Source of the DNA: Candidatus Buchananbacteria bacterium
Lineage (GTDB): Bacteria; Patescibacteriota; Patescibacteriia; 2-01-FULL-39-33
Assembly: GCA_041666945.1 (NCBI GenBank)
Contig: JBAYFY010000004.1
Location: 6,226 to 70,225, forward strand
DNA length: 64,000 nucleotides
Direction of reading: 5' to 3'
Positions 7,771 to 61,623 of this stretch are shown here, piece after piece. Every line of letters begins with the position of its first letter. Within the stretch, counting starts at the first letter, position 1. Under the pieces are notes generated by a model that was not told the origin of the DNA, made no database searches, and worked only from the letters and a program-made list of their open reading frames with translations. The translations under genes were made by a program, and so were the position numbers.

Positions 7771-8721
7771 TTATTTTTTTACGCCCCAATCGGGAGTCGC
7801 CACTTTGCCTTTTTTGGCAGCTAAGTATTTATAAGCGGACAAAGCGGCTTTAGCGCCCTCGCCGGCGGCAATCGTCATTTGTTTGAATCCCACATCCGTG
7901 CAATCGCCGGCGGCAAATATTCCGGGCTGGCTGGTAGCTCCGACTTTATCGGTAATAATTTCCTTACGCTCGTTTAATTTGACCGTATCCTTGATCCAAT
8001 CGGTTCTGGGACTAAAACCGATTTCCACAAAAATACCGTCCACCGCCAATTCTTTCTCTTCATTAGTTTGCAAATCGTTATATTTAAGACCGGCAACCTT
8101 GTCAGAACCGACGACTGCCGTTACTTTCAAGCCGCAAATCACCTGTACATTCTTGAGCGCCTTAACCTCTTCCACCAAAGCCGCATCAGCCGCCGCATTG
8201 CAGGAATCGGACAACAAATAAACCTGCCTAACCAAGCGGGAAAGATACTCGGCGGCTTCTGACGCCGAATTGCCGCCGCCTATTACCGCCACGGTCTTGT
8301 TCTTAAACAACGGACCGTCGCAAGTGGCGCAATAGGACACGCCGCGGCCGGTCAATTCCTTTTCCTGCGGTACGCCCAAATCGCGCGGCGTTAAGCCGAA
8401 AGCCAAAATTACCGCTGCCGCCTGATATTCGGTTTGCGCGGTCTTTACGATAAAGACGCCGGAATTTTCCGTGACGCTTTGGACCTCGTCAGAGACAAAC
8501 TCAACACCCCATTTTTCCGCTTGAACTTTCATCCTCTGCGTCAATTCCAAACCGGTCGTGGACTCGGTGCCCGGCCAATTCTGCACTTCGTGCGCCAAAG
8601 CGGCTTGGCCGCCGACAGCTTTGGCAATCACCAACACTTTTAACTCGCGTCGGCGCGCGTAAATTGACGCGGTCAGGCCCGCCGGTCCGCCGCCGATTAT
8701 AATGACATCATAATTAGACAT
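7771..8721 (-). CDS. trxB: Thioredoxin-disulfide reductase
   Basis: GGGPAG FAD motif, redox-active CATC, second GGGNSA NADPH motif; 316 aa. Confidence 0.9.
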   Translation of the reverse strand: MSNYDVIIIGGGPAGLTASIYARRRELKVLVIAKAVGGQAALAHEVQNWPGTESTTGLELTQRMKVQAEKWGVEFVSDEVQSVTENSGVFIVKTAQTEYQAAAVILAFGLTPRDLGVPQEKELTGRGVSYCATCDGPLFKNKTVAVIGGGNSASEAAEYLSRLVRQVYLLSDSCNAAADAALVEEVKALKNVQVICGLKVTAVVGSDKVAGLKYNDLQTNEEKELAVDGIFVEIGFSPRTDWIKDTVKLNERKEIITDKVGATSQPGIFAAGDCTDVGFKQMTIAAGEGAKAALSAYKYLAAKKGKVATPDWGVKK

Positions 8722-9034
8722 ATTTTTCTATTTCCGCTTTAAGCTGTTCTTTGCCCTGCAAACCCATCATTGTGCTTTTGATTTCTCCGCCCTTAAAAAT
8801 AATCAGGGTCGGCACGGACATGATATTATATTTGCCGGCCGTTTCCGGATTGGCATCAACATCCATGGCGCCCACCTTGGCTTTAGCGCCTATTTCTTTG
8901 GCTAATTCTTCAATAATCGGGCCCTGCATCTTGCACGGACCGCACCAAGTGGCAAAAAAATCGACCAGTACGACCTGATCGCTTTTTAGCGCTTCGGCCT
9001 CAAAATTGGCATCGGTAAAAGTCATTTCTGACAT
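8714..9034 (-). CDS. trxA: Thioredoxin
   Basis: WCGPCK active site; start taken at internal MSEMTF (ORF extends to 9121). Confidence 0.85.
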   Translation of the reverse strand: MSEMTFTDANFEAEALKSDQVVLVDFFATWCGPCKMQGPIIEELAKEIGAKAKVGAMDVDANPETAGKYNIMSVPTLIIFKGGEIKSTMMGLQGKEQLKAEIEKYV

Positions 9035-9117
9035 AAAATTAAAATTATTAATGAATAACCGGCTTCGTCTAACGGCCTCGCCGTTTATCTTGGGCGGGTT
9101 GAACAGGGTGAATCTTA

Positions 9118-12100
9118 TCACTCTCCGCTTCCCGGGTCAACCGATGAAACATTCGCCACCACCACCGTTGATGCGGCATCCGTTACCGTTACCGGAGGTT
9201 CATCAGCGGCCGGCGCCGACTCGGAAATAGGCAGTTCCTCTGTTGCTGGCAAAGTTTCCGGATTGGGCGGCTCGTCAGCAAGCATATCGGCTGATTGGAT
9301 TGTTCCGCTTACATCGGAATCCGTTGTTTCTGTCACGCCCAAATTAGCCGTGTTTAAAACAGTTGACGCCCCGATGACATCGGTAACTAACGATGAGGTA
9401 GAACTGACAAAAAACGGATTGCTGCTGGATGATTCTGTCGTGGTAGAAAAATCATTCTGCAGAATAATCAGCGAACTGCTGCTCAAAACAATATTCAGCC
9501 CGTCATCAGTGATTTCATCGTTAGTCATAATCCCGCTTTCATCGCTCTTAACCGCTATGGCATGCCAATTAAATCTCATTTCTGCCGTAAACGGCAAATC
9601 AACCGCCAGAATGAAACCTGTGGAACTTTGCGCTTCCACCCAATAATTGTGTCCGGCGACATTAAGCAACGGAGTCAAGGTAATTATCGGATCAACTTCA
9701 TACGGTTTGGCAAAATATACGGCGGTAGAAGTCGCGCCCACAGGCAATTCTACCGTGCCGGCCGCATCTTTATCCAAATAAATATGATCCTTAAACACCA
9801 CTTTGGATTCAAACCCGGCTTCGCCGATAACTGTGATAGTGCCGTAAAAAGTAGCCGAAGAATCAACCGTCAGCGAATCCAATTCTTCGGTTTCTTCAAC
9901 GGAAGCGTCAGTAACAGCCAAATCGGAAGAGGTGCTCACGAGTTCCGACAACTGGGCGGATAAAACCCCAAGCTCCTGCTCCTGGCGTTGGGCGATTTGT
10001 AATAAATAAAACGATAGATGATCAAAACGATAGCCCCGGGTTAAACCGTCATCCATGTATAATTCCGGCAAGACATCCCTGATTTCTTCGGCGATCAAGC
10101 CGAAATCGGTTTGTCCGGTTTTTTTCCAGACAAAGGATTTGACCTGCAAACCCAATAAAGCGTCAATATCAAGATCGGTATCAATAATTTCCTCTTTGTA
10201 TTCTCTGGAAGACGGATTGACATTGGTCAGGGTGCCGTTATTGGAATAAACGATGCCGTTAGTGTTTAAATTAGTAACTGTTAAAGTGCTGGTAACCGTT
10301 ACCGCCTTGCCATCGGCGTCAAAAGTAACAAAAGGCAGAGAATCATTGTAATCAAGCCATTGATAGGTCTTGGCGCTCTGAAAATACAATAATTCAGTCG
10401 TGGTGTTAAAAGCGATGTCTGCCGTAGCGGCCATCTGCAAGTTGGTAAAAGTTAAAACAGAATCACGATTTGTTGAATAAAGAATCGCCTGATCCTTTAT
10501 TCCGATCAAATCATAATCAGAACCACCGGTAAAAGCGGAAGTGGAAGCATGCCCGGCAATTATCGGTACACCCATTAAGGTGTCATCCCAATAAAAATCA
10601 ATGCCGTAATCCCCGTCACTAGTGAGCTTTAGCCAATCGTCATTGGAAGTAACGGTTAATTTATGGGTCGGGGTGCTGGTGGTAAAACCGATAGTGGTAG
10701 TGGAATTCAAATTAGTTTCACCGGCAACCTTAAGGCCGCCACCGCCGACTATCACTCCGAAAAATTTGCCCAAACCGATGGTTATCAAATCCCTTAACAC
10801 TTGCAGACCGCCAGACACTATAGAACCGACCCGAGCAGTTGGCGTTTCCATTCCCGGAAGTTTTACAATTACTAATTCATTATTGGGGTTGGCGGAAAGC
10901 GGCAAATAAGCCCGATTGCCGGCTACTTCTACGCCCCAAGGAAATTTAACCAAGGAAAGCGAATCGACGAAAAACGGATTATAAGGATTAGAAATATTTA
11001 TAATTCTTAAAGCCCTGCCCTTGGCATCAACTACGTAAGCATAGTCCCCCTGGACAGCTAATCCGGAAGCTCCGGAATATCCAAGTTCGGTGCTAAAAGA
11101 CAAACCGCTGCCGCCGACTATAACCGGATTAGTGGAAGAAGAAATATCAATAATCCTAAAAACCTGGGTGGAGGTTATGCCGGCATCAGTGGTCGGACCG
11201 AAACAATCGCTGGTCGTATAAGCATAGTTGCCGCGCACCACCACGTCTCTGCCTAAGGGCGACATCGCTAAATTCTGTCCGCCGACTACAACCGGATGGT
11301 AAGGATCGGATATATCGGTAATCCTAAAGACATCAGTAGAAGTATCAAAATAACTGACGGTATAAGCGTATTTTCCCTGAATGTCAATACCGCGCGTCTC
11401 GCCCGGGAAACCGCTTACGGAAGCGCTTATTCTTGCTGGGTTTGAGGGATCGGAAACATCTATAATTTGCAGGCCGTCATAGCCCCTGGCAGCAGTAGTA
11501 TAATAAGCGGCGTAAAGCAAGCCGTCTATAACCCTTAATTTCCTTAGAGCGTAATCATTGGTATAATTGCTGCCAACCATTTCCACCGGGTTAGTCGGAT
11601 CGGTAATATCCAAAATAGAAAGGGTGGTGGTACTGCCGGTATCATAATCTTCAAAACCGATATAAGCGTATTTGCCGTCAACCTCAATGCATCTGGCGCC
11701 GCCGTCCGGCAAACCGGGCTGCAAAGAAAAATCGCTGTCCAATAAAATCGGATTGTCAGGGTTGGAGATGTCAAAAATCCTCAATCTATTGGTGGAAGTG
11801 GCGGATTGCATCACTACATAAAGATAATCGCCGTAAACCGCCGAATTGGACGCGCCGCCAGACACATCAGGCAAAGAGGTGGTAACATAGGTCAAGGCGG
11901 CGGTAAAAGCCGTTGTCGTACTGATGGAAAGCTTGGTAAAAAATGGCGAGGAGGTAACGCTAAGCAAGCCGTTAGTGGCTTGTAAAACTCCGGTCAGATT
12001 GCTGATTGTCAGATTGCCGGAAAGATTCAAGTTTGTCAGGTAGGGCGAGGAACTCACTGATACCAGTCCGTTAGCGGCCTGCAAGATACCGTTCAAACTG

Positions 12101-13884
12101 CCGACGGTTAAATTACTGGAAATGACGGCGGTGGTTGCGGTAGCATTGCCGCTGATATTCAATCCGCCACTGCTAACGGTAACTTTGTTGTCAAAAGTGT
12201 AACCGCCCGAAGCGTTATAAAACGCTAACACGTCAGTGGAAGAAGTCCAACCTATATTAGCATTACCGGCAGTGCCTACAGAACCAAAATAAATTTCCGG
12301 ATCAGCGCCGTTACTAAAAATCTTAAAATCCTCGGCCGTTACGGAGAATATATTCAAGCTGACTATATTACTCAAATTGTCATAGACAGCGAAAGTTAAA
12401 TTTTTTTGTAACGCATCAAAAGATTGGACTAATAAATTATCACTATCAACAACACCCATATACAAGCCCGGACTTTCATTTGGAACGGTCTGCATGATAA
12501 TCATTGAGTCCTTAACCGTGCCCAACTCGCTCATTACAACTGATGTGCCGGAAAAAGCGGTAGAGGGAAAAGTGTAACTGTAAATACTGGAAGTAGTATT
12601 GCCGCCGGAAAATGAAAAGGTGGTGGTGGCCAAAGTGGAAGTGCCGGTAACAGACAGGTTGCCGCTTAAGGTCAGGCCGGCGAAAGTTGGCGTATTAGTC
12701 GTGTCCAGCCATTGGTTAAAGGGATTTTTTGCCGTGGCTGCCGAGTAATAGGTGTTAAAATTGCTCTGGAATCCCGCCCAAGTCGTAGTGGTATTCCAAA
12801 AATACTGTTCGGAGGTGGTAGACCAGCGAATTTTTGTGCTTTCCCAATAGTCGCTGGAACTGGTAGCCCAACTGCCGGCTAAAGTGGAAATATCCGACCA
12901 ATTATTGATATACACGCCGTTCAAACCGGCGGTAGTTCCCAGATAAGAGTTAGTGGAGGTAGCGGCGGTGGTGGTTGATCTGGCAACGGTCAAATCAGTG
13001 ATATCGGCGATGGATGCGGTCAAATTGGTGAACCAGCCGGAGACGGCATTGAAGACGGAGGTATAAAAATTAGTTGTGGTGGCTTGGGTTATGGAAGCAT
13101 AAGTGGAAAACAAATTAGTGGAGGTGGAATTTATCGCCAAAGTTGATGAAACGTTTAAGGTCTTGATGTTGGCAGTTGAAGTAACCGATAAGTCGGTAAC
13201 AGCGAGAGTGCTGCCGGTCGCGTCGCCAAAAACCAAGGTAGTGATATTGGCTATAGTGGCCGTCAAATTACTAATAACCGAAGACAGCGCAGTAACAGCA
13301 TTGGCAAAAAAATTCGTGCTGGTGGCATTAGTGATTGAGGCCTTATCGGCAAAAAAGTTAGTGGAAGTCAAATTGGTAATAGTGGCGCGACTGTTGACGA
13401 TATCCGCTCTTAAAAATGAAGTGGTGGCTAAGCCGTCCAGTTCCAACGCGTTTAGCGCGTTAGGCACGGCGCCCAGGCGTTTCCTCGGAGTGAGGGTTTC
13501 TCCGCTTACGGCCACTTCCAAATACAAATCCTGATTGAAATCAACTGATGATAAAGCCGTAACCGAGCCCAGCATAACCGAAAAAAGACCGTTAGTGACT
13601 GCGACTTGATCGGCGCCGGTTCGGGTTTCCGTCCAAAGAACTGAGGAACAAGCCGAGTCGGCGCACAATCTAAAAACCATGTCATAATTGCCGTCGGCAA
13701 CTGCCACATCGGAATGATCAGTAAGCTTACCTTGATAATTTATTTGTTGGTTAAAGGAAGCATCGGCTTGAGAAACGGAAAAAAACAGGGTGGACACGGC
13801 AAAACAAGCCATGATAACCCTAATTATCAGGTACCTAAAACTTTTTTGGTGTGTGTTTGTCACCATGCCAAAAATTTTATGCAT
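9118..13884 (-). CDS. Giant (1588 aa) secreted surface protein: signal peptide, long Thr/Ser/Asn-rich beta-repeat region, LVIVD-repeat beta-propeller, internal peptidase S74-like intramolecular chaperone autoprocessing domain (~nt 9925-10212), acidic C-terminal tail
   Basis: N-terminal hydrophobic signal region; repeats YAY..D....L.I.DIS.P..P (LVIVD type) x6; SSREYKEEI...FVWKK....DFGLIAEEIRDVLPEL...coiled coil matches S74/CIMCD consensus. Confidence 0.8.
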   Translation of the reverse strand: MHKIFGMVTNTHQKSFRYLIIRVIMACFAVSTLFFSVSQADASFNQQINYQGKLTDHSDVAVADGNYDMVFRLCADSACSSVLWTETRTGADQVAVTNGLFSVMLGSVTALSSVDFNQDLYLEVAVSGETLTPRKRLGAVPNALNALELDGLATTSFLRADIVNSRATITNLTSTNFFADKASITNATSTNFFANAVTALSSVISNLTATIANITTLVFGDATGSTLAVTDLSVTSTANIKTLNVSSTLAINSTSTNLFSTYASITQATTTNFYTSVFNAVSGWFTNLTASIADITDLTVARSTTTAATSTNSYLGTTAGLNGVYINNWSDISTLAGSWATSSSDYWESTKIRWSTTSEQYFWNTTTTWAGFQSNFNTYYSAATAKNPFNQWLDTTNTPTFAGLTLSGNLSVTGTSTLATTTFSFSGGNTTSSIYSYTFPSTAFSGTSVVMSELGTVKDSMIIMQTVPNESPGLYMGVVDSDNLLVQSFDALQKNLTFAVYDNLSNIVSLNIFSVTAEDFKIFSNGADPEIYFGSVGTAGNANIGWTSSTDVLAFYNASGGYTFDNKVTVSSGGLNISGNATATTAVISSNLTVGSLNGILQAANGLVSVSSSPYLTNLNLSGNLTISNLTGVLQATNGLLSVTSSPFFTKLSISTTTAFTAALTYVTTSLPDVSGGASNSAVYGDYLYVVMQSATSTNRLRIFDISNPDNPILLDSDFSLQPGLPDGGARCIEVDGKYAYIGFEDYDTGSTTTLSILDITDPTNPVEMVGSNYTNDYALRKLRVIDGLLYAAYYTTAARGYDGLQIIDVSDPSNPARISASVSGFPGETRGIDIQGKYAYTVSYFDTSTDVFRITDISDPYHPVVVGGQNLAMSPLGRDVVVRGNYAYTTSDCFGPTTDAGITSTQVFRIIDISSSTNPVIVGGSGLSFSTELGYSGASGLAVQGDYAYVVDAKGRALRIINISNPYNPFFVDSLSLVKFPWGVEVAGNRAYLPLSANPNNELVIVKLPGMETPTARVGSIVSGGLQVLRDLITIGLGKFFGVIVGGGGLKVAGETNLNSTTTIGFTTSTPTHKLTVTSNDDWLKLTSDGDYGIDFYWDDTLMGVPIIAGHASTSAFTGGSDYDLIGIKDQAILYSTNRDSVLTFTNLQMAATADIAFNTTTELLYFQSAKTYQWLDYNDSLPFVTFDADGKAVTVTSTLTVTNLNTNGIVYSNNGTLTNVNPSSREYKEEIIDTDLDIDALLGLQVKSFVWKKTGQTDFGLIAEEIRDVLPELYMDDGLTRGYRFDHLSFYLLQIAQRQEQELGVLSAQLSELVSTSSDLAVTDASVEETEELDSLTVDSSATFYGTITVIGEAGFESKVVFKDHIYLDKDAAGTVELPVGATSTAVYFAKPYEVDPIITLTPLLNVAGHNYWVEAQSSTGFILAVDLPFTAEMRFNWHAIAVKSDESGIMTNDEITDDGLNIVLSSSSLIILQNDFSTTTESSSSNPFFVSSTSSLVTDVIGASTVLNTANLGVTETTDSDVSGTIQSADMLADEPPNPETLPATEELPISESAPAADEPPVTVTDAASTVVVANVSSVDPGSGE

Positions 13885-14045
13885 TAAACCTAATAAAAAA
13901 GCAATGAAAATTACTTTTTATTTAGGTAATGCCTTTATACATTATAACACAAAAGTAATTAAAAAACGAAATCTTTATCCACAGATGAAAAAAGATGTCT
14001 CGTAAATAACGAAACATCTTTTTTGTTTATTTTTTTATTTTAATT

Positions 14046-16511
14046 TTAACCGAATAATCCTTCTTTATTTTTGTTTTCTACTGCTTGCGGCGGCTCTTCC
14101 ACGGTTAGCGGAATATCCTGAGGTTGAGTATCTTCAACTGATTTTATTTCTTCTTTGTTTTCTTTGATTTCGACGGTCTCTTGAGGCGCGGCCGGTTGAG
14201 CGGCCGACTGATTGGCGCTATGGTCGCTGATTGGCTCGGGCAGTTGTCCCGCTCCCCGCTTCAAACCGATGTTCTGTTTAACCACGGCCTCGGCCGCGGA
14301 CTGGCCGGTCAAATCAATGAGCGGGGTCTTGGTTTGGGCATAACCCTCTTTGCTGGCAGTCAAATAATATTTGTTATTTTCGGCCAAAAAGCCGTATTCA
14401 CCGCGATTGTCGGTAACATAGAACTCCAGCATGCGGCCGTATTCGGGAGAAAAAATCCTAATAACCGCTTTGGCCAATGATTTCTTGTCAGTCAAATCAT
14501 AAACCTTGCCCCAACTGCGCCGACCCTTCGGTTTGTCAGTTAAACGCTTAAAAATAAGAAGCAAAATCAAATGCAGGGTCAAAATTAAAGCGGAAAAAAT
14601 TGACGGATAAATGAAAACATAGACCAAGGCCAGAAACGGACCGATTAAGCTAAAACTGGCCGCCCAATGCTCGCGACGGAACTTGGCCAAGGCCTGCTTA
14701 TCGGTAACAACCAAATTTTTGTCAGAGTCCACGGGGATATTCGGGGCAATCGTGCCCATTGAACCTTGAGGAATATTTATAACCTCGCCAAAATACAAAT
14801 CCAAATACTGGCCGTCGGACTTTTTGCCAACTAAAATCTCGGAAGGATAAACAAAACCGGTTTTCTCCACTTTAATGACATATTGGCCTTCTTGAGCGAA
14901 AAAAATAAAACGTCCGAATTTATCGGTTACCCGAGAAGTTACCAAGCGATCGGTGGCTTTATCATATAAGCGGACCAATGCTAAATCCACCGGCTTCTTG
15001 GTAATGGAATTGAAAACTACGCCCCAATCCTTGCGTCGCCGCCGGAATAAAAACAGCCAGGGTTGGGTAAATAAGAATTGCAGGATGGAAAAACTCCAAA
15101 AAGGCGCGGCCAAAACAACATTAACCAAGGCCAGGCCTACGGTTGCTTGAACGATTGCCTTCCCCGCTGGCGATTGGGCAATAGTTCTTGCCGGCGTTAA
15201 AAAATCCGCTACCGCTTTAAGCGAATCAACACCCGGCAATTGTTCCAAGATTTCCAAGGGCTTAATTATGGCAACGGACACCAGCCAACCGGAAACATCG
15301 GCCAAATTAGTCCCGACAGAATCCTGCAAAGTGAATTTCAAATCATAACGGCCGGCCGGTACGGGAGAAAATTGAGCGGCGTAAGTATTGCTTATGGCAT
15401 CGTAAACTAAAAAATAAACATAATTATTAACTGCCGATGATAAATCCATCCTGATTCGCTCTGTACCTGTCGGCACTTTGTCGGCGGCAATATAAACCGT
15501 AATCATTCCGCCGTCCGCGGAAACAACCGCTTCGCCAGCCGGCGAAAAAATGCTCGCGATACCGTCTTGACTGAAAATAAAATCACCTAAACTGACCGAT
15601 GGCGGAATAACAGGAGGAGTAGTCGTCGGAGTGGTGGTGGGCGGGATAACGGGAGGAGTAGTCGTCGGAGTGGTGGTGGGCGGGATAACGGGAGGAGTAG
15701 TCGTCGGAGTGGTGGTAACAACGAAAGGCACGCCGCTGATGCCGGCGCCTGAAGCGAAATTGTCTAAAGAATCATAAGCAAAAACCGTATAATAATATCT
15801 TGTATCGTTTGTTAATCCGGTATTTAAAAAACTGACTTCGGGACTGACCGCCGGTTCGCCCCAGCCATCATAAACCAATACGCCTGAAGCCAATGAGGGA
15901 TAATCAAAGGTAGAACGCCTGATAATGACGCCGGCAAAATTAGTACTGGTAGGATTTTGCCAAAATAAAGCCAATTGGCTGTCGCCGGCCACCAAGCGCA
16001 AACCGGCAACGTTAGTGATTAAATCAAAAGGCGGAGCGCTTTGGGTGGTAAAAGTATAATCACCCGTATTAGCTGAACCGCCGGTTGTATCTTGGCAGGC
16101 CAGATAAAAATGATACAGGGTCGCGGGACTTAAAGAAACAATAAGCGAGGAATGGGCCGTTACAGGAGAGATCTCGGCGGTTTGGCCGGTTAAGTAATCG
16201 GTGGTTGTACCCCAATGCAACTGGCATAGAGCGGGGTGGTTGGTTTGCCAAGTAATAGCGGCGCTGCTGACAGTCGTAGTGGCCACCCTAACATCGGAAA
16301 TTTCAAAACCGCCGCCGCAATTAGTGCAAGGAGGCGGACAATCAATGGGACAGGTTTCATGAGTTTCTCCGGTTTCGCAAACGCCATTGTTATTGCAGCC
16401 GCCGCCGACCGTCAAGCCGACAGTAAAACTATCGCTGGTAGTTACAGCCATGGCTGTCAACGGCAAAAGAACAAAAAATAAAATAATGGCTATTTTTCTG
16501 ACCGCTGACAT
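14046..16511 (-). CDS. Large (821 aa) secreted/membrane protein: signal peptide, Cys-rich N-term, fibronectin-III-like domain, (TTTPTTTPPVIPP)x3 linker, TM segments, CarboxypepD_reg-like beta-sandwich domains
   Basis: Signal peptide MSAVRKIAIILFFVLLPLTAMA; PT-rich 45-bp x3 DNA repeat at ~15601-15718; multiple hydrophobic helices mid-protein. Confidence 0.75.
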   Translation of the reverse strand: MSAVRKIAIILFFVLLPLTAMAVTTSDSFTVGLTVGGGCNNNGVCETGETHETCPIDCPPPCTNCGGGFEISDVRVATTTVSSAAITWQTNHPALCQLHWGTTTDYLTGQTAEISPVTAHSSLIVSLSPATLYHFYLACQDTTGGSANTGDYTFTTQSAPPFDLITNVAGLRLVAGDSQLALFWQNPTSTNFAGVIIRRSTFDYPSLASGVLVYDGWGEPAVSPEVSFLNTGLTNDTRYYYTVFAYDSLDNFASGAGISGVPFVVTTTPTTTPPVIPPTTTPTTTPPVIPPTTTPTTTPPVIPPSVSLGDFIFSQDGIASIFSPAGEAVVSADGGMITVYIAADKVPTGTERIRMDLSSAVNNYVYFLVYDAISNTYAAQFSPVPAGRYDLKFTLQDSVGTNLADVSGWLVSVAIIKPLEILEQLPGVDSLKAVADFLTPARTIAQSPAGKAIVQATVGLALVNVVLAAPFWSFSILQFLFTQPWLFLFRRRRKDWGVVFNSITKKPVDLALVRLYDKATDRLVTSRVTDKFGRFIFFAQEGQYVIKVEKTGFVYPSEILVGKKSDGQYLDLYFGEVINIPQGSMGTIAPNIPVDSDKNLVVTDKQALAKFRREHWAASFSLIGPFLALVYVFIYPSIFSALILTLHLILLLIFKRLTDKPKGRRSWGKVYDLTDKKSLAKAVIRIFSPEYGRMLEFYVTDNRGEYGFLAENNKYYLTASKEGYAQTKTPLIDLTGQSAAEAVVKQNIGLKRGAGQLPEPISDHSANQSAAQPAAPQETVEIKENKEEIKSVEDTQPQDIPLTVEEPPQAVENKNKEGLFG

Positions 16512-16513
16512 AA

Positions 16514-17266
16514 TTAATTGGTATAGGCGGTAAGGGTAACGGTAGCGCTGTAACTGCCGGATGATTGAGCGGCAGCAGCGCCGGCTTCGGCGCGCAATTT
16601 GATGGTTGTCGCTGTTCCGCCGGTACTGGCTACCGCTGACTGGGCGATGGTTTTATTACTGGTTGTGAATTCATCCCAACAAGCGTTGGGGGTATTCAGT
16701 AATCCGGTATTGCAAGCTAACCCGTCATCTTTATAAGTGGAAGTGATATCCGATCCTTCCGGAGTGAAACCGAAACCCGATGAGGCCGCGGCTACTGACC
16801 AAGTAAAATCAGGGTTGGCCCCGGCTTTAACGTAATCAATAAAACTATTCGCTCCGGAAACAAGCGCCGGGGCCGAGCCGGCTTTGATTTGTAGAGTATA
16901 ACCGAGAGAATTGTTGGTTCGGGCGGTGGCAACCGTAGAACCGTTAGCCGTACCGCCGGAAGCGGTGGTAATTGATGGCGTAAGCGAAACACTGGCATCG
17001 GCAATGGTTAAGGTAATATAAACGGCTTCGTCCATTTGCTGAAAACCGGCATTAGCTTGATAAGTGGTACTGGTGGAAAGACCGGTGCCGATTTCTCCCC
17101 CGGTCTGCTCTAAATCATAAGTAGTGGAGGTACTTAGCCCGCCAGTGAAGTTCAGGGAATCGCGTTGCAGTTCAAAATTGGTGGATGACATAACATAAGC
17201 CCAGGCCGGCGAGGCGAGAGCGGCCAAAAAAACAGCAACGATTAAAAAAGTTAGCTTGTTCTTCAT
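16514..17266 (-). CDS. Secreted beta-rich Ser/Thr/Gly-rich protein, possibly WxL-like surface protein (start at internal MKNKLTF signal peptide)
   Basis: Signal peptide MKNKLTFLIVAVFLAALASPAWA; C-terminal ...YSATVTLTAYTN resembles WxL-domain ending but lacks the Trp. Confidence 0.6.
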   Translation of the reverse strand: MKNKLTFLIVAVFLAALASPAWAYVMSSTNFELQRDSLNFTGGLSTSTTYDLEQTGGEIGTGLSTSTTYQANAGFQQMDEAVYITLTIADASVSLTPSITTASGGTANGSTVATARTNNSLGYTLQIKAGSAPALVSGANSFIDYVKAGANPDFTWSVAAASSGFGFTPEGSDITSTYKDDGLACNTGLLNTPNACWDEFTTSNKTIAQSAVASTGGTATTIKLRAEAGAAAAQSSGSYSATVTLTAYTN

Positions 17267-18201
17267 AATGTCTTGTTTGTATTCCGGCGCCGCAATTGAA
17301 TAATCGCAACAATCGCCGCAATCACAATAAGAGCGATCAGAACCGTAAAAACCCAAGGCGGCAAAACCCAAAAACTGACGCGACTTTCCATATAACTCTG
17401 GCCGTAGCCGGGATTTAACGATAATTTGACGCGGTACCAGCCGAGCTGCGGTCGGGTAAATTCCAAGGTTTGCGTCCGCGTCGTATCCGGCATGACAAAA
17501 TAAGCAGGAATCTTTATTATTTCCACGGTTTGTCCAAAAAGATTCAATAAGGACATTTCTCCTGACGGATTCAAATAAATATTGCCGGTATTTTTGAAAG
17601 AAAAATCAACTTTGACCGGAGCGGAATCGTTGATTTTTTTTTCCGCCCGCAAAACGGTTAATTCACCCGACTCTTCAACCGAGCCGCTGACTCGGACAAA
17701 ATATAAGGAAGCTAAACGCGAAACCGGTTTGACTTGGCCGGCGCTATCCGTTAAATCCGCCTGGGCGGGAGCGGCCGCGCTGATTAAAACCGCGCCGTAA
17801 AGTCCGCCAGGCGGAGCGTCAGCCGGCACTTTCACTTCTACCGGCAATTCCATTCGTTCGCCGTGCAACAGAGAAAAACTCATTACTTCGGGACGAAGAA
17901 AATCTTTCAGCGAATATTGGCCCTTCTGGGTACCTAAAAAATCCAGGTTAGCGCCGCTTTCAGCGATAAAATCCTCGACAGCCACGGAAAAATTCAAAGG
18001 TTGGCCGGAACGATTAATAATAACAACCGAGGTCTTGGCGCTGCCGCCCGGATCTAAAATTAACTCCTTCTTGCCGCCTTCCAACACAAAATCATTAAAA
18101 TTGCTAACGTTGGTCAGTTGGGTGATGGTGAAGGCGCCGGAACCAAGCGGCATTAAAAACAGCAGACAAAAAATTGCCGGCCAAATTGTTCGTTTGGACA
18201 T
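17263..18201 (-). CDS. Cell-surface protein with signal peptide and C-terminal TM anchor plus basic tail (DUF916/CscA-like architecture)
   Basis: N-terminal signal MSKRTIWPAIFCLLFLMPLGSGA; C-terminal VFTVLIALIVIAAIVAIIQLRRRNTNKTL. Confidence 0.65.
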   Translation of the reverse strand: MSKRTIWPAIFCLLFLMPLGSGAFTITQLTNVSNFNDFVLEGGKKELILDPGGSAKTSVVIINRSGQPLNFSVAVEDFIAESGANLDFLGTQKGQYSLKDFLRPEVMSFSLLHGERMELPVEVKVPADAPPGGLYGAVLISAAAPAQADLTDSAGQVKPVSRLASLYFVRVSGSVEESGELTVLRAEKKINDSAPVKVDFSFKNTGNIYLNPSGEMSLLNLFGQTVEIIKIPAYFVMPDTTRTQTLEFTRPQLGWYRVKLSLNPGYGQSYMESRVSFWVLPPWVFTVLIALIVIAAIVAIIQLRRRNTNKTL

Positions 18202-59084: not shown

Positions 59085-59120
59085 GACCTGTCGAAAAATT
59101 TCGACAGGTCTTTAAATTTC
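59085..59120. terminator. Bidirectional hairpin terminator (gacctgtcgaaa..tttcgacaggtc) between convergent genes
   Basis: 12-bp inverted repeat followed by tttaaatttc. Confidence 0.6.
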
Positions 59121-61623
59121 ACTGGCTGTTTTTTGCTCTTAATTTATACCCCAGCCAACCGCTAAACGCAATGAAAAATATTATGACGGCTACGGCATAA
59201 CTCAAAGGCGAACCGAGAAACGGCGCCTTATCTCCGACTTCATAAGCGCCTTTGACCTGGCCGCTAATTGCTGTGATATCCTTGGCGCTGCGCGGCAGAA
59301 GCCGGGCGCCTGAAGCGGTCAGCGAAGCAATGCCAACGACCGTAACTTTATCGCCCGCATGCCAATTGATTTCCTTGGTGTCAATCCGATTTTTAAGATA
59401 TACCTTAACTTCGCCGCTGCCGTCGTCAACAAACGCATTGCGGCCTTTAATCTCTAACAGTTCACCGGAAATCTTTACGAGTGATCCGATATTATCTTCC
59501 AACTCAATCGCGCTGATTTCCTGCGGTTGCGGTTCGGCTTCGCTGGACAAATATTTGATGTCGTCGCGGGTTTTTATCTTTATTCTTCTCTCGCCGGCGG
59601 TCTCCGATATCTCTCCGACAACCTCTATCCGATCGCCGACTTTAAGTTCGGGAAAATCTTTTTTATTGCAATATACCTGAATGCCGGAGCCGGCCAAATA
59701 GAAGATCTGCGTGCCCAACACTCCCGGTTCTACCGACACTACGCCACTGACTCTGACTTTGTCACCCACGGCCAAATTCTTCAGCTCTTCCATGCTGACC
59801 GCATGGATTGCTCCGGAACTGCCGGCGGCTTTTTTGATCGCCGCCGCTTTAATGGTGTTTAAAACCTCAACCGTCTGTTCCCGGTCCAGGCCATCGCCGG
59901 GAAAAATATTTTCCGCTCCCGGCGTCGGTTGTTCCGTCCACAGCCATTCGCCTTTAGCGGTTCTGGCATAAGCCAAACCCTCGCTCTGCTTGGCCGTATA
60001 ACTCACACGATCCAATAATTCTCCCAGCGGCGAAAACAAGTTGGCCGTTTCAAAACCAGTATCATTTAAAGCGATGGACGTGGATGCCCGCTTGATGGCG
60101 ATTAATTCCTGGGGCAATAACGGCAGAGTTGAGGAAGCGGCGCGCAAATAATGCTTCTTGTTGGTATTGTCCGTCAAATAAAAACCGTTTAAATCAATCG
60201 TGGTGGTGGAGATGTTTTTTAATTCTATAAACTCGTCATTGGCGCCCGTGGCCGGATGAGGGAATAACTCGTTAATAATTAATTTGCCGTAATAATCTCC
60301 GGCGGCGATAACGGCGGTGGAGGTGGTTGAACTGGCGGTTTCAATGCTAACCGGTTGATAATCGGAGGGAGATGAACCGCCGCCGGTTGAACCGCCGGAA
60401 ACCGGCTTGGGCGTAATGACATTTATCGCGCCTTTGGTCGGCGTGATGGTTTCTTCAAAAATACCGCTGCTGTTGCGCGCCCAGGCCTCGCCTTTCTTAT
60501 TGGAATAATCGCCGTAAACGGTTTGATCAAAAATTTTATCGGCCAAACTCAAGACGATGGTGTCGCCGTCATTATTCAAATTGCCGGCAATATTTTCCAC
60601 CGCCAAATATTGGCCGGGAGAAATTTCACCACTTAAAGTGGTGGTAACGAATTTATCGCCGTCAATATTAAGCAACAACAATTCGGATAAATCCCGGGTG
60701 GAAGTGGCGGTATTAAACAATTCTATCCATTCCTCTTCGCCGGCATCGGGAGCGGGGTAAATTTCATTGATGACCACATCGCCGATTTGCGGCTTTAGCG
60801 CCAAAGTGGTGGTGGGCGTAGAGGTGGGCGTCGTGGTGCCGACGGGGTCGGTGATGAATAAATTCAAAATCGCGGGGGAAGAGGTGGCTCCTTCGCTGTC
60901 CACCACGTAATAGTTGACCGCATAAGTCCCGGATGCCGGAAAACTTTGGCTGACATTAACGCCGTGCCTGGTTAATTGCTGGCCGAAATCCCAAAGCCAG
61001 TCAATTAAGGCATTTCCGTCCGGGTCGGTGGAACCGCCGTCGGAAAATTCTATTTCCTCTCCCGTTTCGGCTGCGGTTTTGGTCGAGGTGGCCACAGCCA
61101 CGGGCGGTTGATTGGGCAGGGTTAAATCCAACCTGACATTATTTACGCCAACGCCATGCCGAGAATCAACATCAACGCTGCCACGGAAACGCAATTGCAG
61201 ATTGCTGCCGCAAAACAGGGTTACGGGAGTGGAAGAAATAAAAGCCGTGGTTAACGCTTGAAATGATTGCAAAGTCCGCCACTCGCTGCCAGCGACCGAA
61301 CTTTCCAAATATAACATATCACTGGTGCCGGTGGCGCTTGAATAATATCTTTTGTAATCAAAGCTGATAGCAGCAGTCGTACAACGGCTCAAGTCGATCA
61401 TGCCAGTTGCTAAAACCGACTCGGGATTGTTAAAAATCCAATAATCGCCATTGTCATTTACGGTCTGTTGCCAATCGCCGGCCGAGCAGCTGCCGTTAAC
61501 GCAATTGGTGAAAGCCAGCTGATTGCCGGCCGCGCGAGACACTTCGCCTGAAAGCAAAATAAAAAATCCGGCGGTTGCAACGGCCGCCAGAAATATCAAA
61601 TAAAAAAAGATCGCCCTCCTCAT
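59119..61623 (-). CDS. Membrane-anchored extracellular protein (834 aa) with signal/TM N-term, PKD-like domain, two lamin-tail (LTD) domains, OB-fold-like C-terminal repeats and C-terminal TM
   Basis: WLWDFGQQ PKD motif; VVINEIYPAPDAGEEEWIELFN and LIINELFPHPATGANDEFIELKN LTD signatures; C-terminal VAVIIFFIAFSGWLGYKLRAK. Confidence 0.75.
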   Translation of the reverse strand: MRRAIFFYLIFLAAVATAGFFILLSGEVSRAAGNQLAFTNCVNGSCSAGDWQQTVNDNGDYWIFNNPESVLATGMIDLSRCTTAAISFDYKRYYSSATGTSDMLYLESSVAGSEWRTLQSFQALTTAFISSTPVTLFCGSNLQLRFRGSVDVDSRHGVGVNNVRLDLTLPNQPPVAVATSTKTAAETGEEIEFSDGGSTDPDGNALIDWLWDFGQQLTRHGVNVSQSFPASGTYAVNYYVVDSEGATSSPAILNLFITDPVGTTTPTSTPTTTLALKPQIGDVVINEIYPAPDAGEEEWIELFNTATSTRDLSELLLLNIDGDKFVTTTLSGEISPGQYLAVENIAGNLNNDGDTIVLSLADKIFDQTVYGDYSNKKGEAWARNSSGIFEETITPTKGAINVITPKPVSGGSTGGGSSPSDYQPVSIETASSTTSTAVIAAGDYYGKLIINELFPHPATGANDEFIELKNISTTTIDLNGFYLTDNTNKKHYLRAASSTLPLLPQELIAIKRASTSIALNDTGFETANLFSPLGELLDRVSYTAKQSEGLAYARTAKGEWLWTEQPTPGAENIFPGDGLDREQTVEVLNTIKAAAIKKAAGSSGAIHAVSMEELKNLAVGDKVRVSGVVSVEPGVLGTQIFYLAGSGIQVYCNKKDFPELKVGDRIEVVGEISETAGERRIKIKTRDDIKYLSSEAEPQPQEISAIELEDNIGSLVKISGELLEIKGRNAFVDDGSGEVKVYLKNRIDTKEINWHAGDKVTVVGIASLTASGARLLPRSAKDITAISGQVKGAYEVGDKAPFLGSPLSYAVAVIIFFIAFSGWLGYKLRAKNSQ

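What the first reader, a model, noticed from the sequence alone, without database searches (positions are those of the whole stretch)
9118..13884. Giant surface protein with LVIVD beta-propeller and an internal S74-type intramolecular-chaperone autoproteolysis domain
The 1588-aa protein has a signal peptide, a long Thr/Ser/Asn-rich repetitive beta region, and six LVIVD-type repeats (YAY..D...L.I.DIS.P..P). At roughly nt 9925-10212 it carries a segment matching the peptidase S74 / endosialidase C-terminal chaperone consensus (SSREYKEEI ... FVWKK ... DFGLIAEEIRDVLPEL ... coiled coil). This domain normally self-cleaves after trimerisation in phage tailspikes and fibers. Here it is internal: about 268 aa of acidic tail follow it, which would be released if cleavage occurs.
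Basis: partly seen in the sequence, partly recalled or inferred. Interest (0 to 1): 0.6.

Follow-up and report, generated by a model that had tools for sequence, protein, structure and literature searches.

The report
Self-processing phage-like surface fibre protein
A chromosomal gene of a Candidatus Buchananbacteria (Patescibacteria/CPR) bacterium encodes a giant secreted fibre protein built like a phage tailspike, whose predicted self-cleaving assembly domain is followed, unlike in phage fibres, by a conserved lectin-like knob and an acidic tail; this end-piece recurs in thousands of unstudied CPR proteins.

Summary
ORF 9118-13884 (-) encodes 1588 aa with a signal peptide, an S/T/N-rich shaft and six LVIVD repeats (Pfam 98.6 bits). 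A Peptidase_S74/ICA domain lies at aa 1225-1275 (28.8 bits, cut-off 22). A family profile matches solved ICA domains (6f45, 8jov, MYRF 7dc3). Ser1225 is invariant and Lys1230 nearly so, and S-x4-K is kept in 52/53 representatives and 18/18 genomic loci with an S74.

One correction. What follows is not just an acidic tail. It is a coiled-coil helix, a conserved ~103-aa beta-sandwich with an H-type-lectin / tailspike-knob-like fold (aa 1346-1448), then a 140-aa acidic S/T/P-rich tail. Cleavage would release 364 aa (39 kDa), including the S74 domain.

This C-terminal cassette recurs in thousands of protein clusters; every named source is a Patescibacteria MAG. The N-terminal Ig-like domain and the knob are the best-conserved parts, and the middle is swappable.

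The gene is cellular, not prophage: housekeeping synteny, no PHROG hit. NCBI already names it "tail fiber domain-containing protein".

Best reading: a trimeric surface fibre whose C-terminal cassette nucleates assembly and is then self-cleaved. Cleavage, trimerisation and glycan binding are untested. New variant of a known kind; moderate interest.

The parts
9118..13884 (-). Whole ORF, 1588 aa (stop codon at 9118-9120). NCBI's model starts at Met25 (nt 13812) and gives 1564 aa.
13759..13884 (-). Sec-type signal peptide, aa 1-42: n-region K14/R17/R22, h-region aa 19-37, predicted cleavage ADA|S.
   Evidence: Read from the sequence; the only hydrophobic 19-aa window with Kyte-Doolittle score >1.8. 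In relatives the next domain starts at a median position of 35.
13474..13743 (-). Family-defining N-terminal Ig-like beta-sandwich, aa 48-137 (INYQGKL...GLFSVMLG...PRK motif).
   Evidence: Shared by ~118 of 120 relatives. AF2 pLDDT 89-97. Only generic Ig-like/E-set fold matches. No Pfam hit.
13243..13314 (-). Short predicted helix, aa 191-214, a possible coiled-coil neck after the N-terminal domain.
   Evidence: AF2 helix at model residues 155-177, pLDDT ~60-75. Weak match to the helical part of the S74 HMM.
11845..13404 (-). S/T/N-rich repetitive shaft, aa 161-680.
   Evidence: 36-47% S+T+N. The orthologue P0002 has ~550 extra residues here. No Pfam hit.
10837..11844 (-). LVIVD repeat region, aa 681-1016: six clean repeats plus one degenerate. 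Presumed beta-propeller.
   Evidence: Pfam PF08309, 98.6 bits, E=1.2e-28. Repeat cores listed.
10213..10836 (-). Beta-rich 'stalk/tip' between the propeller and the cleavage site, aa 1017-1224. It would become the C-terminus of the mature fibre.
   Evidence: No Pfam hit. Strands immediately before Ser1225 in the AF2 model. Only 30-35% identity in the more distant relatives P0004/P0005 (71% in P0002).
10195..10212 (-). Predicted catalytic dyad motif S1225-S-R-E-Y-K1230. Predicted scissile bond Pro1224|Ser1225.
   Evidence: Ser invariant in 14/14 and Lys in 13/14 sequences of A1. Aligns to residue 1 of the released GA-1 chaperone chain 3gud and to the dyad columns of 6f45, 8jov and 7dc3.
9925..10212 (-). 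S74 / intramolecular chaperone auto-processing domain, aa 1225-1320: Pfam core 1225-1275 (nt 10060-10212) plus the C-terminal long helix aa ~1287-1317.
   Evidence: Pfam 28.8 bits against a cut-off of 22. Family profile vs PDB: 6f45 1.5e-11, 8jov 8.9e-11, 7dc3 1.5e-7. AF2 helix at model residues 93-123.
9541..9849 (-). Conserved beta-sandwich knob with H-type-lectin-like / tailspike C-terminal-domain-like fold, aa 1346-1448. It is preceded by a 25-aa linker (nt 9850-9924).
   Evidence: AF2 pLDDT 88-94. Foldseek PDB: 4q56, 3wmp, 2ccv, 2vme, Sf6/LKA1/Pam1 tailspikes, R-pyocin fibres. Pfam H_lectin hit by 12/26 and K1-lyase_C by 6/26 family members at E<=1. 89% identical in P0002.
9121..9540 (-). 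Low-complexity acidic S/T/P-rich tail, aa 1449-1588, pI ~4. No TM helix and no sortase motif.

Best explanation
The gene encodes a Sec-exported, homotrimeric cell-surface fibre of a Patescibacteria (Candidatus Buchananbacteria) bacterium. It is assembled by the same logic as a phage tailspike or endosialidase. From N to C the parts are: a signal peptide; a conserved Ig-like domain, inferred to be the cell-proximal attachment end; a long S/T/N-rich shaft; an LVIVD beta-propeller 'payload' with a beta-rich stalk, inferred to be the variable part that faces the environment or host; and a constant C-terminal assembly cassette. The cassette consists of the S74/ICA domain with its coiled-coil helix, an H-type-lectin-like trimeric knob and an acidic disordered tail. 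After export, the cassette brings three chains into register. Once the trimer is correctly folded, the Ser1225/Lys1230 dyad cuts the Pro1224|Ser1225 bond. This releases a ~39-kDa fragment (aa 1225-1588) and leaves a ~125-kDa mature fibre (aa 43-1224). Shown here: domain identities, dyad conservation, the conserved cassette, and the chromosomal, non-phage context. Inferred: trimerisation, cleavage, which end is anchored, and that the knob and tail serve assembly rather than target binding.
For: S74 identity: Pfam above cut-off, and the family profile hits solved ICA domains, including through the coiled-coil helix.

Dyad: Ser invariant and Lys 13/14 in A1. S-x4-K is present in 52/53 S74-bearing representatives and in 18/18 S74-bearing genome loci. 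Pro at P1 also occurs in the aligned MyRF chain. Selection on the dyad implies catalysis. According to PMC3742443 and PMC8326128, the dyad works only in the folded trimer, and the C-terminal coiled coil drives trimerisation.

Cassette: the S74 domain lies a median of 26 aa before the knob. Tails are uniformly S/T/P-rich and acidic, with ~1% K/R and no TM helix or LPXTG motif.

Constant ends, variable middle: the N-terminal domain is 92/65/69% identical and the knob 89/57/62% identical, against 30-40% for the propeller and stalk in P0004/P0005. Only 3 of 58 long knob-bearing proteins have LVIVD repeats. A constant C-terminus fits a generic assembly role better than target recognition.

Phage precedent: trimeric C-terminal beta-sandwich domains act as auto-chaperones in tailspikes (PMC3357383 abstract). 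The S74 domain plus coiled coil is absent from mature virions (bioRxiv 10.1101/2024.10.28.620165).

Cellular origin: housekeeping neighbours, synteny with the orthologue, no PHROG hit, a signal peptide, and up to three paralogues per genome.
Against: There is no experimental evidence of cleavage, trimerisation or surface location for any member.

About half of the knob-bearing proteins lack a recognisable S74. In those the knob must remain part of the mature protein, so it may have a function beyond assembly, such as glycan binding.

The knob is better conserved than the S74 core, which is unexpected for a purely disposable pro-piece.

The H-lectin assignment rests on marginal statistics: Foldseek E=4e-3 to 3e-2, no Pfam hit for the query itself, and no PDB hit by sequence.

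The structure models are monomers of a presumably trimeric protein. The upstream 'stalk' could not be modelled. Which end is anchored is argued only from conservation logic.
Confidence: 0.5

Rival explanations
1. There is no cleavage. The S74 domain serves only as a permanent trimerisation module, and the H-type-lectin-like knob is the distal glycan-binding tip of the mature fibre.
For: The knob also occurs in about half of family members without an S74, where it must be part of the mature protein. It has the fold of lectins and of receptor-binding knobs of R-pyocin fibres and tailspikes. It is highly conserved. In phage fibres, lectin-like heads are terminal binding modules (bioRxiv 10.1101/2024.10.28.620165).
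Against: The Ser/Lys dyad is kept almost universally, which is hard to explain without catalysis. In every characterised ICA protein, trimer folding triggers cleavage (PMC8326128, PMC3742443). A target-binding tip would be expected to vary, yet here it is the constant part.
Confidence: 0.2
2. Cleavage occurs, but the C-terminal fragment is the functional product or the anchor. In one version, the knob binds the cell's own wall glycans and S74 cleavage sheds the fibre, giving MYRF-like release from an anchor. In the other, a soluble trimeric lectin (S74 + knob + tail) is released.
For: MYRF is a precedent for an internal ICA domain that separates two functional halves (PMC3742443). The knob is strongly conserved, as expected if it binds a constant 'self' ligand. 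The lectin-like fold supports glycan binding.
Against: There is no TM helix or sortase signal downstream (1 borderline case in 161). Constitutive folding-triggered cleavage would make a C-terminal anchor self-defeating (inference). The N-terminal domain is the more universal constant part, as expected of the attachment end. Glycan-binding residues were not examined.
Confidence: 0.2
3. The gene is a tail fibre of a prophage, tailocin or contractile injection system rather than a cellular surface protein.
For: NCBI names it 'tail fiber domain-containing protein'. The S74 core resembles Streptomyces and Synechococcus phage tail proteins. S74 folds occur in eCIS fibres (PMC12923769).
Against: The neighbours are TyrRS, TrxB, thioredoxin, signal peptidase II, RsmE and SHMT, and the block is syntenic in another genome. 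There is no PHROG hit. The protein has an N-terminal signal peptide, and its N-terminal domain is shared with more than 100 CPR proteins. No phage-type genes were seen among the ORFs scanned.
Confidence: 0.03
4. The protein is a polymorphic-toxin-like system in which an autoprotease releases a C-terminal effector.
For: It is a large secreted repeat protein with an internal autoprotease upstream of a C-terminal module. Tail-fibre repeats occur in polymorphic toxins (PMC3482391).
Against: The C-terminal module is constant rather than polymorphic. It has a lectin/knob fold and no toxin family hit. The downstream gene is thioredoxin, not an immunity gene.
Confidence: 0.02

Closest known systems
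Phage K1F endosialidase (endoNF) and other tailspikes/fibres with a C-terminal intramolecular chaperone domain (T5 L-shaped tail fibre, S16 gp37, GA-1 gp12)
   Same: It has an S74/ICA domain with a Ser-x4-Lys dyad and a C-terminal helix, preceded by a beta-rich stalk. As in endoNF, a beta-propeller lies N-terminal to the stalk (my knowledge of endoNF; the propeller families differ). The expected logic is trimerise, fold, self-cleave (PMC8326128).
   Different: It is a chromosomal cellular gene with a signal peptide, not a virion protein. The ICA domain is not terminal: a conserved knob and an acidic tail follow it. The propeller is LVIVD-type, with no sialidase hit.
MYRF (myelin regulatory factor), a eukaryotic protein with an internal ICA domain
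   Same: The ICA domain is internal, and the family profile matches 7dc3 at E=1.5e-7, with Pro at P1. Cleavage would separate two multi-domain halves.
   Different: MYRF's C-terminal half is membrane-anchored by a TM helix, whereas this protein has no TM helix downstream. The contexts differ: an extracellular bacterial fibre versus an ER-membrane transcription factor.
H-type lectins (Helix pomatia agglutinin, SLL-2, discoidin II) and trimeric C-terminal knobs of tailspikes / R-pyocin fibres / K1-lyase_C
   Same: All share a six-stranded beta-sandwich of ~100 aa. Foldseek gives TM 0.52-0.59 over whole lectin chains. Pfam H_lectin and K1-lyase_C are the most frequent weak hits among family members. 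These folds are trimeric in the known examples (my knowledge).
   Different: The query itself has no Pfam hit, and the profile finds no PDB lectin by sequence. Sugar-binding residues were not examined. In phage fibres, lectin-like heads and S74 domains are described as alternative C-termini (bioRxiv 10.1101/2024.10.28.620165), whereas here they are in series.
LVIVD-repeat cell-surface proteins (first described in Methanosarcina and some bacteria; PMC2447325)
   Same: It has tandem ~45-50-aa LVIVD repeats in a secreted protein.
   Different: Here the repeats are one interchangeable module inside a phage-fibre-like scaffold. Only 3 of 58 long proteins with the same C-terminal cassette carry them.

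Membership tests
Peptidase S74 / intramolecular chaperone auto-processing (ICA, CIMCD) domain | Significant match to the family profile (PF13884) above its gathering score | tested here: met
   28.8 bits against a cut-off of 22, E=1.6e-6, profile positions 1-56 of 58. Family profile vs solved ICA domains: 6f45 1.5e-11, 8jov 8.9e-11, 7dc3 1.5e-7.
Peptidase S74 / intramolecular chaperone auto-processing (ICA, CIMCD) domain | Catalytic Ser and Lys five residues apart at the N-terminal edge of the domain (endoNF S911/K916; MyRF S587/K592) | tested here: met
   S1225 and K1230. They align to the dyad columns, and the Ser aligns to residue 1 of the released 3gud chain. Defining residues are taken from PMC8326128 and PMC3742443.
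Peptidase S74 / intramolecular chaperone auto-processing (ICA, CIMCD) domain | Dyad conserved in orthologues and relatives | tested here: met
   Ser 14/14 and Lys 13/14. S-x4-K is present in 52/53 representatives and in 18/18 S74-bearing genome loci.
Peptidase S74 / intramolecular chaperone auto-processing (ICA, CIMCD) domain | C-terminal helix able to form the trimeric coiled coil that drives trimerisation | tested here: met
   AF2 predicts a helix at aa ~1287-1317. The profile aligns through the helix of 6f45, 8jov and 7dc3. This is prediction level only, and the oligomeric state was not tested.
Peptidase S74 / intramolecular chaperone auto-processing (ICA, CIMCD) domain | Upstream trimeric beta-helix / beta-stalk that the domain helps to fold | tested here: inconclusive
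   Beta-strands immediately precede Ser1225 in the monomer model, but at low pLDDT. There is no Pfam hit for aa 1017-1224. The trimer could not be modelled.
Peptidase S74 / intramolecular chaperone auto-processing (ICA, CIMCD) domain | Autoproteolysis after trimer folding | not testable with these tools
   This needs expression plus S1225A/K1230A mutants, or proteomics.
Phage-type ICA proteins (endosialidase, K5 lyase, T5 LTF, GA-1 gp12) | ICA domain at the extreme C-terminus of a virion protein | tested here: not met
   268 aa follow the domain. The context is chromosomal housekeeping, and there is no PHROG hit.
MYRF-like membrane-tethered ICA proteins | Transmembrane anchor downstream of the ICA domain | tested here: not met
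   No hydrophobic window with Kyte-Doolittle score >=1.8 in the query tail. Only 1 borderline case among 161 family tails.
LVIVD repeat (PF08309) | Multiple tandem matches above the gathering score | tested here: met
   98.6 bits against 20.2, five stretches. Six clean repeats plus one degenerate by motif.
LVIVD repeat (PF08309) | Beta-propeller fold | not tested
H-type lectin (PF09458) | Significant match of the query to the family profile | tested here: not met
   No Pfam hit for aa 1341-1588 even at E<=10. No PDB lectin is found by the domain profile.
H-type lectin (PF09458) | Family-level sequence link and fold similarity | tested here: inconclusive
   12 of 26 family members hit H_lectin at E<=1, with a best E of 2.4e-5. 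Foldseek finds 4q56, 3wmp and 2ccv with probability 1.00 and TM 0.56-0.59 but E=0.01-0.03. Full-length P0068 and P0105 give no H_lectin hit at 1e-3.
H-type lectin (PF09458) | Conserved GalNAc/GlcNAc-binding residues at protomer interfaces; sugar binding | not tested
   Identity to the lectins is too low (13-18%) to map the residues reliably without a trimer model.

The most novel reading that the evidence does not exclude
Patescibacteria have domesticated the phage tailspike assembly system into a huge family of polymorphic cell-surface fibres. The family has at least ~2,700 clusters at 50% identity. Its members have constant ends: an N-terminal Ig-like attachment domain and a C-terminal cassette of S74, lectin-like knob and acidic tail. 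Their middles are freely swapped binding or enzymatic payloads such as the LVIVD propeller. On this reading, the fibres are the organelles these episymbionts use to recognise and hold host cells. The cassette is a new kind of self-removing, multi-domain pro-piece, or alternatively a self-released trimeric lectin.
Probability: 0.25. Interest if true: 0.7.

Novelty: new variant of a known kind. Interest (0 to 1): 0.45.

Why it matters
How ultra-small CPR/Patescibacteria episymbionts attach to and choose their hosts is largely unknown, and their giant surface proteins are almost entirely unannotated. This locus gives a concrete, testable architecture. It is a phage-tailspike-like, probably trimeric, self-processing fibre with constant ends and a swappable middle. 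It also defines a conserved C-terminal cassette (S74, lectin-like knob, acidic tail) that can be used to find such fibres in metagenomes. In addition, it extends the known range of the ICA autoprotease. So far that range covers phage fibres and eukaryotic MYRF. This would add bacterial cellular proteins in which the domain is internal and followed by a folded domain. I found no paper describing this arrangement, in the searchable library only.

Tried and rejected
- Searching the PDB with the S74 segment as a single sequence gave only noise. A family profile was needed.
- NCBIfam and PHROGs gave no hits.
- Pfam on the isolated N-terminal 677 aa, the stalk and the C-terminal 248 aa gave nothing.
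- A focused word-index homologue search with the S74+knob module returned only 2 proteins. The exhaustive HMM search was far more informative.
- The search for related loci rejected the diverse alignments A1 and A2. A 7-sequence alignment worked.
- The knob profile against the PDB by sequence gave no lectin.
- Multi-copy hits P0123 and P0153 in the exhaustive search looked like tandem arrays of the knob. P0153, the one I scanned, turned out to be a Calx-beta / GLUG protein, so it is a cross-match. The 5,801 count is therefore an upper bound.
- MYRF-like membrane tethering was rejected because there is no TM helix.
- A prophage origin was rejected on gene context.
- A toxin-cassette reading was rejected because the C-terminus is constant and there is no immunity gene.
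- Conserved gene neighbourhood as a clue to an anchoring partner was uninformative. P0002 is syntenic over the whole region, and P0005 lies in a different context, next to type IV pilus genes.
- Literature searches combining S74/ICA with Patescibacteria or H-type lectin found no paper.
Full report
**1. The observation**

The ORF is at 9118..13884 on the minus strand and encodes 1588 aa. Its N-terminus looks like a Sec signal peptide. It has basic residues K14/R17/R22, the only strongly hydrophobic 19-aa window of the protein at aa 19-37, and an ADA|S site at aa 40-43 (sequence). Residues ~160-680 are 36-47% Ser+Thr+Asn.

Pfam finds LVIVD at 98.6 bits against a gathering score of 20.2 (E=1.2e-28). 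It finds Peptidase_S74 at 28.8 bits against 22 (E=1.6e-6), covering aa 1225-1275 and profile positions 1-56 of 58. That segment is nt 10060-10212. A motif count gives six clean LVIVD repeats, with cores at aa 701, 755, 805, 853, 909 and 959, and a degenerate seventh.

**2. The S74 domain and its catalytic dyad**

A single-sequence search of the PDB gave only noise. I therefore collected relatives and built a 14-sequence alignment, A1, of the S74-to-knob module. The resulting profile matches solved intramolecular-chaperone domains:
- phage S16 long tail fibre 6f45, E=1.5e-11
- the putative tail fibre protein 8jov, E=8.9e-11
- the MyRF ICA domain 7dc3, E=1.5e-7
- weakly, the released GA-1 chaperone 3gud

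The alignments run through the long C-terminal helix. The family Ser column aligns with residue 1 of the released 3gud chain, and the Lys lies five residues on. This is the geometry of the endoNF S911/K916 and MyRF S587/K592 dyads, described as indispensable for cleavage (PMC8326128; PMC3742443).

In the query these residues are Ser1225 and Lys1230 (SSREYK). Ser is invariant and Lys is present in 13 of 14 sequences in A1. The S-x4-K motif is present in 52 of 53 S74-bearing representatives from the exhaustive search. It is also present in all 18 S74-bearing loci from species-representative genomes. The Pro at P1 is also seen in the aligned MyRF chain.

**3. What follows the S74 domain**

That is only partly right. 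An iterative search among the relatives showed that aa ~1336-1448 form a conserved ~110-aa domain present in 26 of 120 relatives.

An AlphaFold2 model of aa 1195-1455, built with alignment A1, gives three features:
- the S74 part at pLDDT ~77-85
- a long helix at aa ~1287-1317
- a six-stranded beta domain at aa ~1374-1444 with pLDDT 88-94

Foldseek against the PDB matches that beta domain to H-type lectins. These are Helix aspersa and H. pomatia agglutinins 4q56/2ccv, SLL-2 3wmp and discoidin II 2vme, with TM 0.52-0.59 over the whole target. It also matches the trimeric C-terminal knobs of tailspikes (Sf6, LKA1 gp49, Pam1) and of R-pyocin fibres.

The E-values are marginal (4e-3 to 3e-2), and the query itself has no Pfam hit. 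However, 12 of the 26 family members individually hit Pfam H_lectin (best E=2.4e-5) and 6 hit K1-lyase_C. The domain profile finds no PDB lectin by sequence. I therefore call it 'H-type-lectin-like / tailspike-knob-like' and do not file it as a member of PF09458.

After it comes a 140-aa tail (aa 1449-1588). The tail is low-complexity, S/T/P-rich and acidic, with pI ~4.

**4. How general the arrangement is**

Among the 120 relatives listed (of 137 found) by the whole-protein search, I found 40 S74 domains. All but one are followed by 112-383 further residues.

A profile of the knob (A2) searched against 1.84 billion cluster representatives gave 5,801 proteins at E<=1e-3 and 2,712 at E<=1e-10. 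One of the two multi-copy hits (P0153) turned out to be a Calx-beta array, so the larger number is an upper bound.

In the best 150 hits the domain nearly always lies close to the C-terminus of a long protein. Of the 105 with room upstream, 53 have a recognisable S74 a median of 26 aa before it. Most of the rest have none, and a few show weak S74-like matches with no S-x4-K motif.

Tails after the knob have a median length of ~100 aa. They are 37% S/T/P, 16% D/E and ~1% K/R. Essentially none has a TM helix or a sortase motif.

In GTDB species representatives, the close subfamily lies in Candidatus Buchananbacteria, Portnoybacteria, Parcubacteria and other Patescibacteria MAGs. There are up to three copies per genome. 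Six loci carry 'uncultured Gammaproteobacteria' labels from third-party bins, which I did not verify.

**5. Constant ends, variable middle**

The stretch shared by ~118 of 120 relatives is the N-terminal ~160 aa directly after the signal peptide. It models confidently (pLDDT 89-97) as a generic Ig-like beta-sandwich followed by a helix.

I compared the query region by region with P0002, P0004 and P0005:

| Region | Identity (P0002 / P0004 / P0005) |
|---|---|
| N-terminal domain | 92 / 65 / 69% |
| Knob | 89 / 57 / 62% |
| Propeller and stalk | 71-72% / 35-36% / 30-38% |

In P0005 the S74 core is only 25% identical while the knob is still 62% identical. Among the 58 long knob-bearing representatives, 31 have the N-terminal domain, 31 have an S74 and only 3 have LVIVD repeats. 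The family is therefore mosaic, and the LVIVD propeller is one interchangeable payload. The orthologue P0002 is 2277 aa, with ~550 extra residues in the shaft.

**6. Cellular, not phage**

The identical protein is in NCBI as 'MAG: tail fiber domain-containing protein [Candidatus Buchananbacteria bacterium]', with precomputed PF13884 and PF08309. The two Pfam domains are thus already machine-annotated.

The neighbours are TyrRS, thioredoxin reductase, thioredoxin, signal peptidase II, RsmE and SHMT. Farther away lie DnaK, trigger factor, NusA, PPDK and pyruvate kinase. The same block is syntenic around P0002 on a 958-kb contig. PHROGs gives no hit.

INPHARED phages match only the S74 core (query residues 56-129 of the module) and never the knob. 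In the viral structure library the matches are tail fibres, tailspikes and 'ICA domain' proteins. They align over ~70-160 columns, meaning one domain or the other. The few longer alignments have rmsd >15 Å. No paralogue lies elsewhere in the window.

**7. Mechanism**

Established knowledge of the ICA family (PMC8326128, PMC3742443) is as follows. The C-terminal coiled coil drives trimerisation. The dyad becomes competent only in the folded trimer. Cleavage occurs before the Ser, and in phages the chaperone then leaves. It is absent from mature virions (bioRxiv 10.1101/2024.10.28.620165).

Applied here, cleavage at Pro1224|Ser1225 would give a mature fibre of aa 43-1224 (125 kDa) and a C-terminal fragment of aa 1225-1588 (39 kDa).

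The C-terminal cassette is constant while the middle varies, and there is no anchor signal downstream. I therefore favour the reading that the N-terminal Ig-like domain is the cell-proximal end. On this reading the cassette of S74, coiled coil, trimeric knob and acidic tail is a disposable assembly module. The knob would act as an extra trimerisation nucleus, as C-terminal domains of tailspikes do (PMC3357383 abstract). A C-terminal anchor separated from the fibre by a constitutively self-cleaving domain would be self-defeating (inference).

The main counter-argument is that half of the knob-bearing proteins have no S74. In those the knob stays on the mature protein, so it may bind something.

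The rivals are:
- no cleavage, with the knob as a glycan-binding tip
- cleavage that produces a functional lectin or anchor fragment
- a prophage or tailocin fibre
- a toxin cassette

The last two are effectively excluded by context and by the constancy of the C-terminus.

**8. Comparison and novelty**

In what it works like, the protein is closest to endosialidase-type tailspikes: propeller, stalk, then ICA. In the internal placement of the ICA domain it is closest to MYRF. It differs from both. It is a bacterial chromosomal secreted protein, and its ICA domain is followed by a folded lectin-like knob and an acidic tail rather than by nothing (phage) or by a TM anchor (MYRF).

In the phage tail-fibre atlas, S74 domains and lectin-like heads are alternative C-terminal endings (bioRxiv 10.1101/2024.10.28.620165). 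Here they occur in series. I found no paper describing this arrangement or S74 proteins of Patescibacteria. The searchable library is incomplete, however, and the domain hits themselves are already in automated annotation.

Verdict: a real feature and a new variant of a known kind, of moderate interest (0.45). It would be of higher interest if these fibres prove to be the host-attachment organelles of CPR episymbionts.

Noticed in passing
window 14046-18201 (-): Three genes directly upstream of the fibre gene encode predicted envelope proteins. The first is 821 aa, with a signal peptide, an FN3-like Pur_ac_phosph_N domain, three TTPTTTPPVIPP repeats, hydrophobic segments and two CarboxypepD_reg domains. 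The second is 285 aa with no Pfam hit. The third is 312 aa with a weak, below-threshold hit to the WxL-interacting-protein peptidoglycan-binding domain. The block is conserved next to the orthologue in GCA_041650895.1 (L022). It could be an envelope complex related to the fibre, or it could simply reflect synteny.
   Followed up: partly
window 11845-13404 (-) versus P0002: The closest orthologue (2277 aa) has ~550 additional residues inserted in the S/T/N-rich shaft. The ends are 89-92% identical. Shaft length therefore appears to vary between related genomes.
   Followed up: partly
window 13941-14020 (-): Read by eye: an 11-bp hairpin followed by a T-run (~14020-13986) lies just after the upstream gene. 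An extended -10-like TGTTATAAT lies at 13941-13949, which suggests the fibre gene has its own promoter. The start codon is ambiguous between ATG at 13884 and ATG at 13812 (NCBI's choice); both have weak AGG/AGGG motifs upstream.
   Followed up: partly
window 59119-61623 (-): This 834-aa protein combines PKD, two lamin-tail (LTD) domains and an OB-fold nucleic-acid-binding domain. It is possibly an extracellular DNA-binding or DNA-uptake-related protein.
   Followed up: no
L023 14681-21190: The family member P0005 (LVIVD + S74 + knob) lies ~1.5 kb from a type IV pilus cluster (PilM, PilO, N_methyl pilin, T2SSF, T2SSE). This is not seen in the window or next to P0002, so it may be coincidence.
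   Followed up: no
window 13243-13314 (-), aa 191-214: The predicted helix just after the N-terminal Ig-like domain weakly matches the coiled-coil part of the S74 HMM. It may be a trimeric neck at the proximal end.
   Followed up: no
loci L006-L008, L012, L014, L020: These contigs carry close relatives of the C-terminal cassette but are labelled 'uncultured Gammaproteobacteria bacterium' (third-party bins). The other named sources are all Patescibacteria. The labels are probably unreliable, but I did not check them.
   Followed up: no
window 8714-9121 (-): As listed mechanically, the thioredoxin ORF starts at a GTG that overlaps the fibre gene's stop codon. The Pfam match begins at residue 34, and the orthologous gene in L022 is 106 aa. 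The real start is therefore probably the internal ATG (MSEMTF...), which leaves a short intergenic gap.
   Followed up: partly
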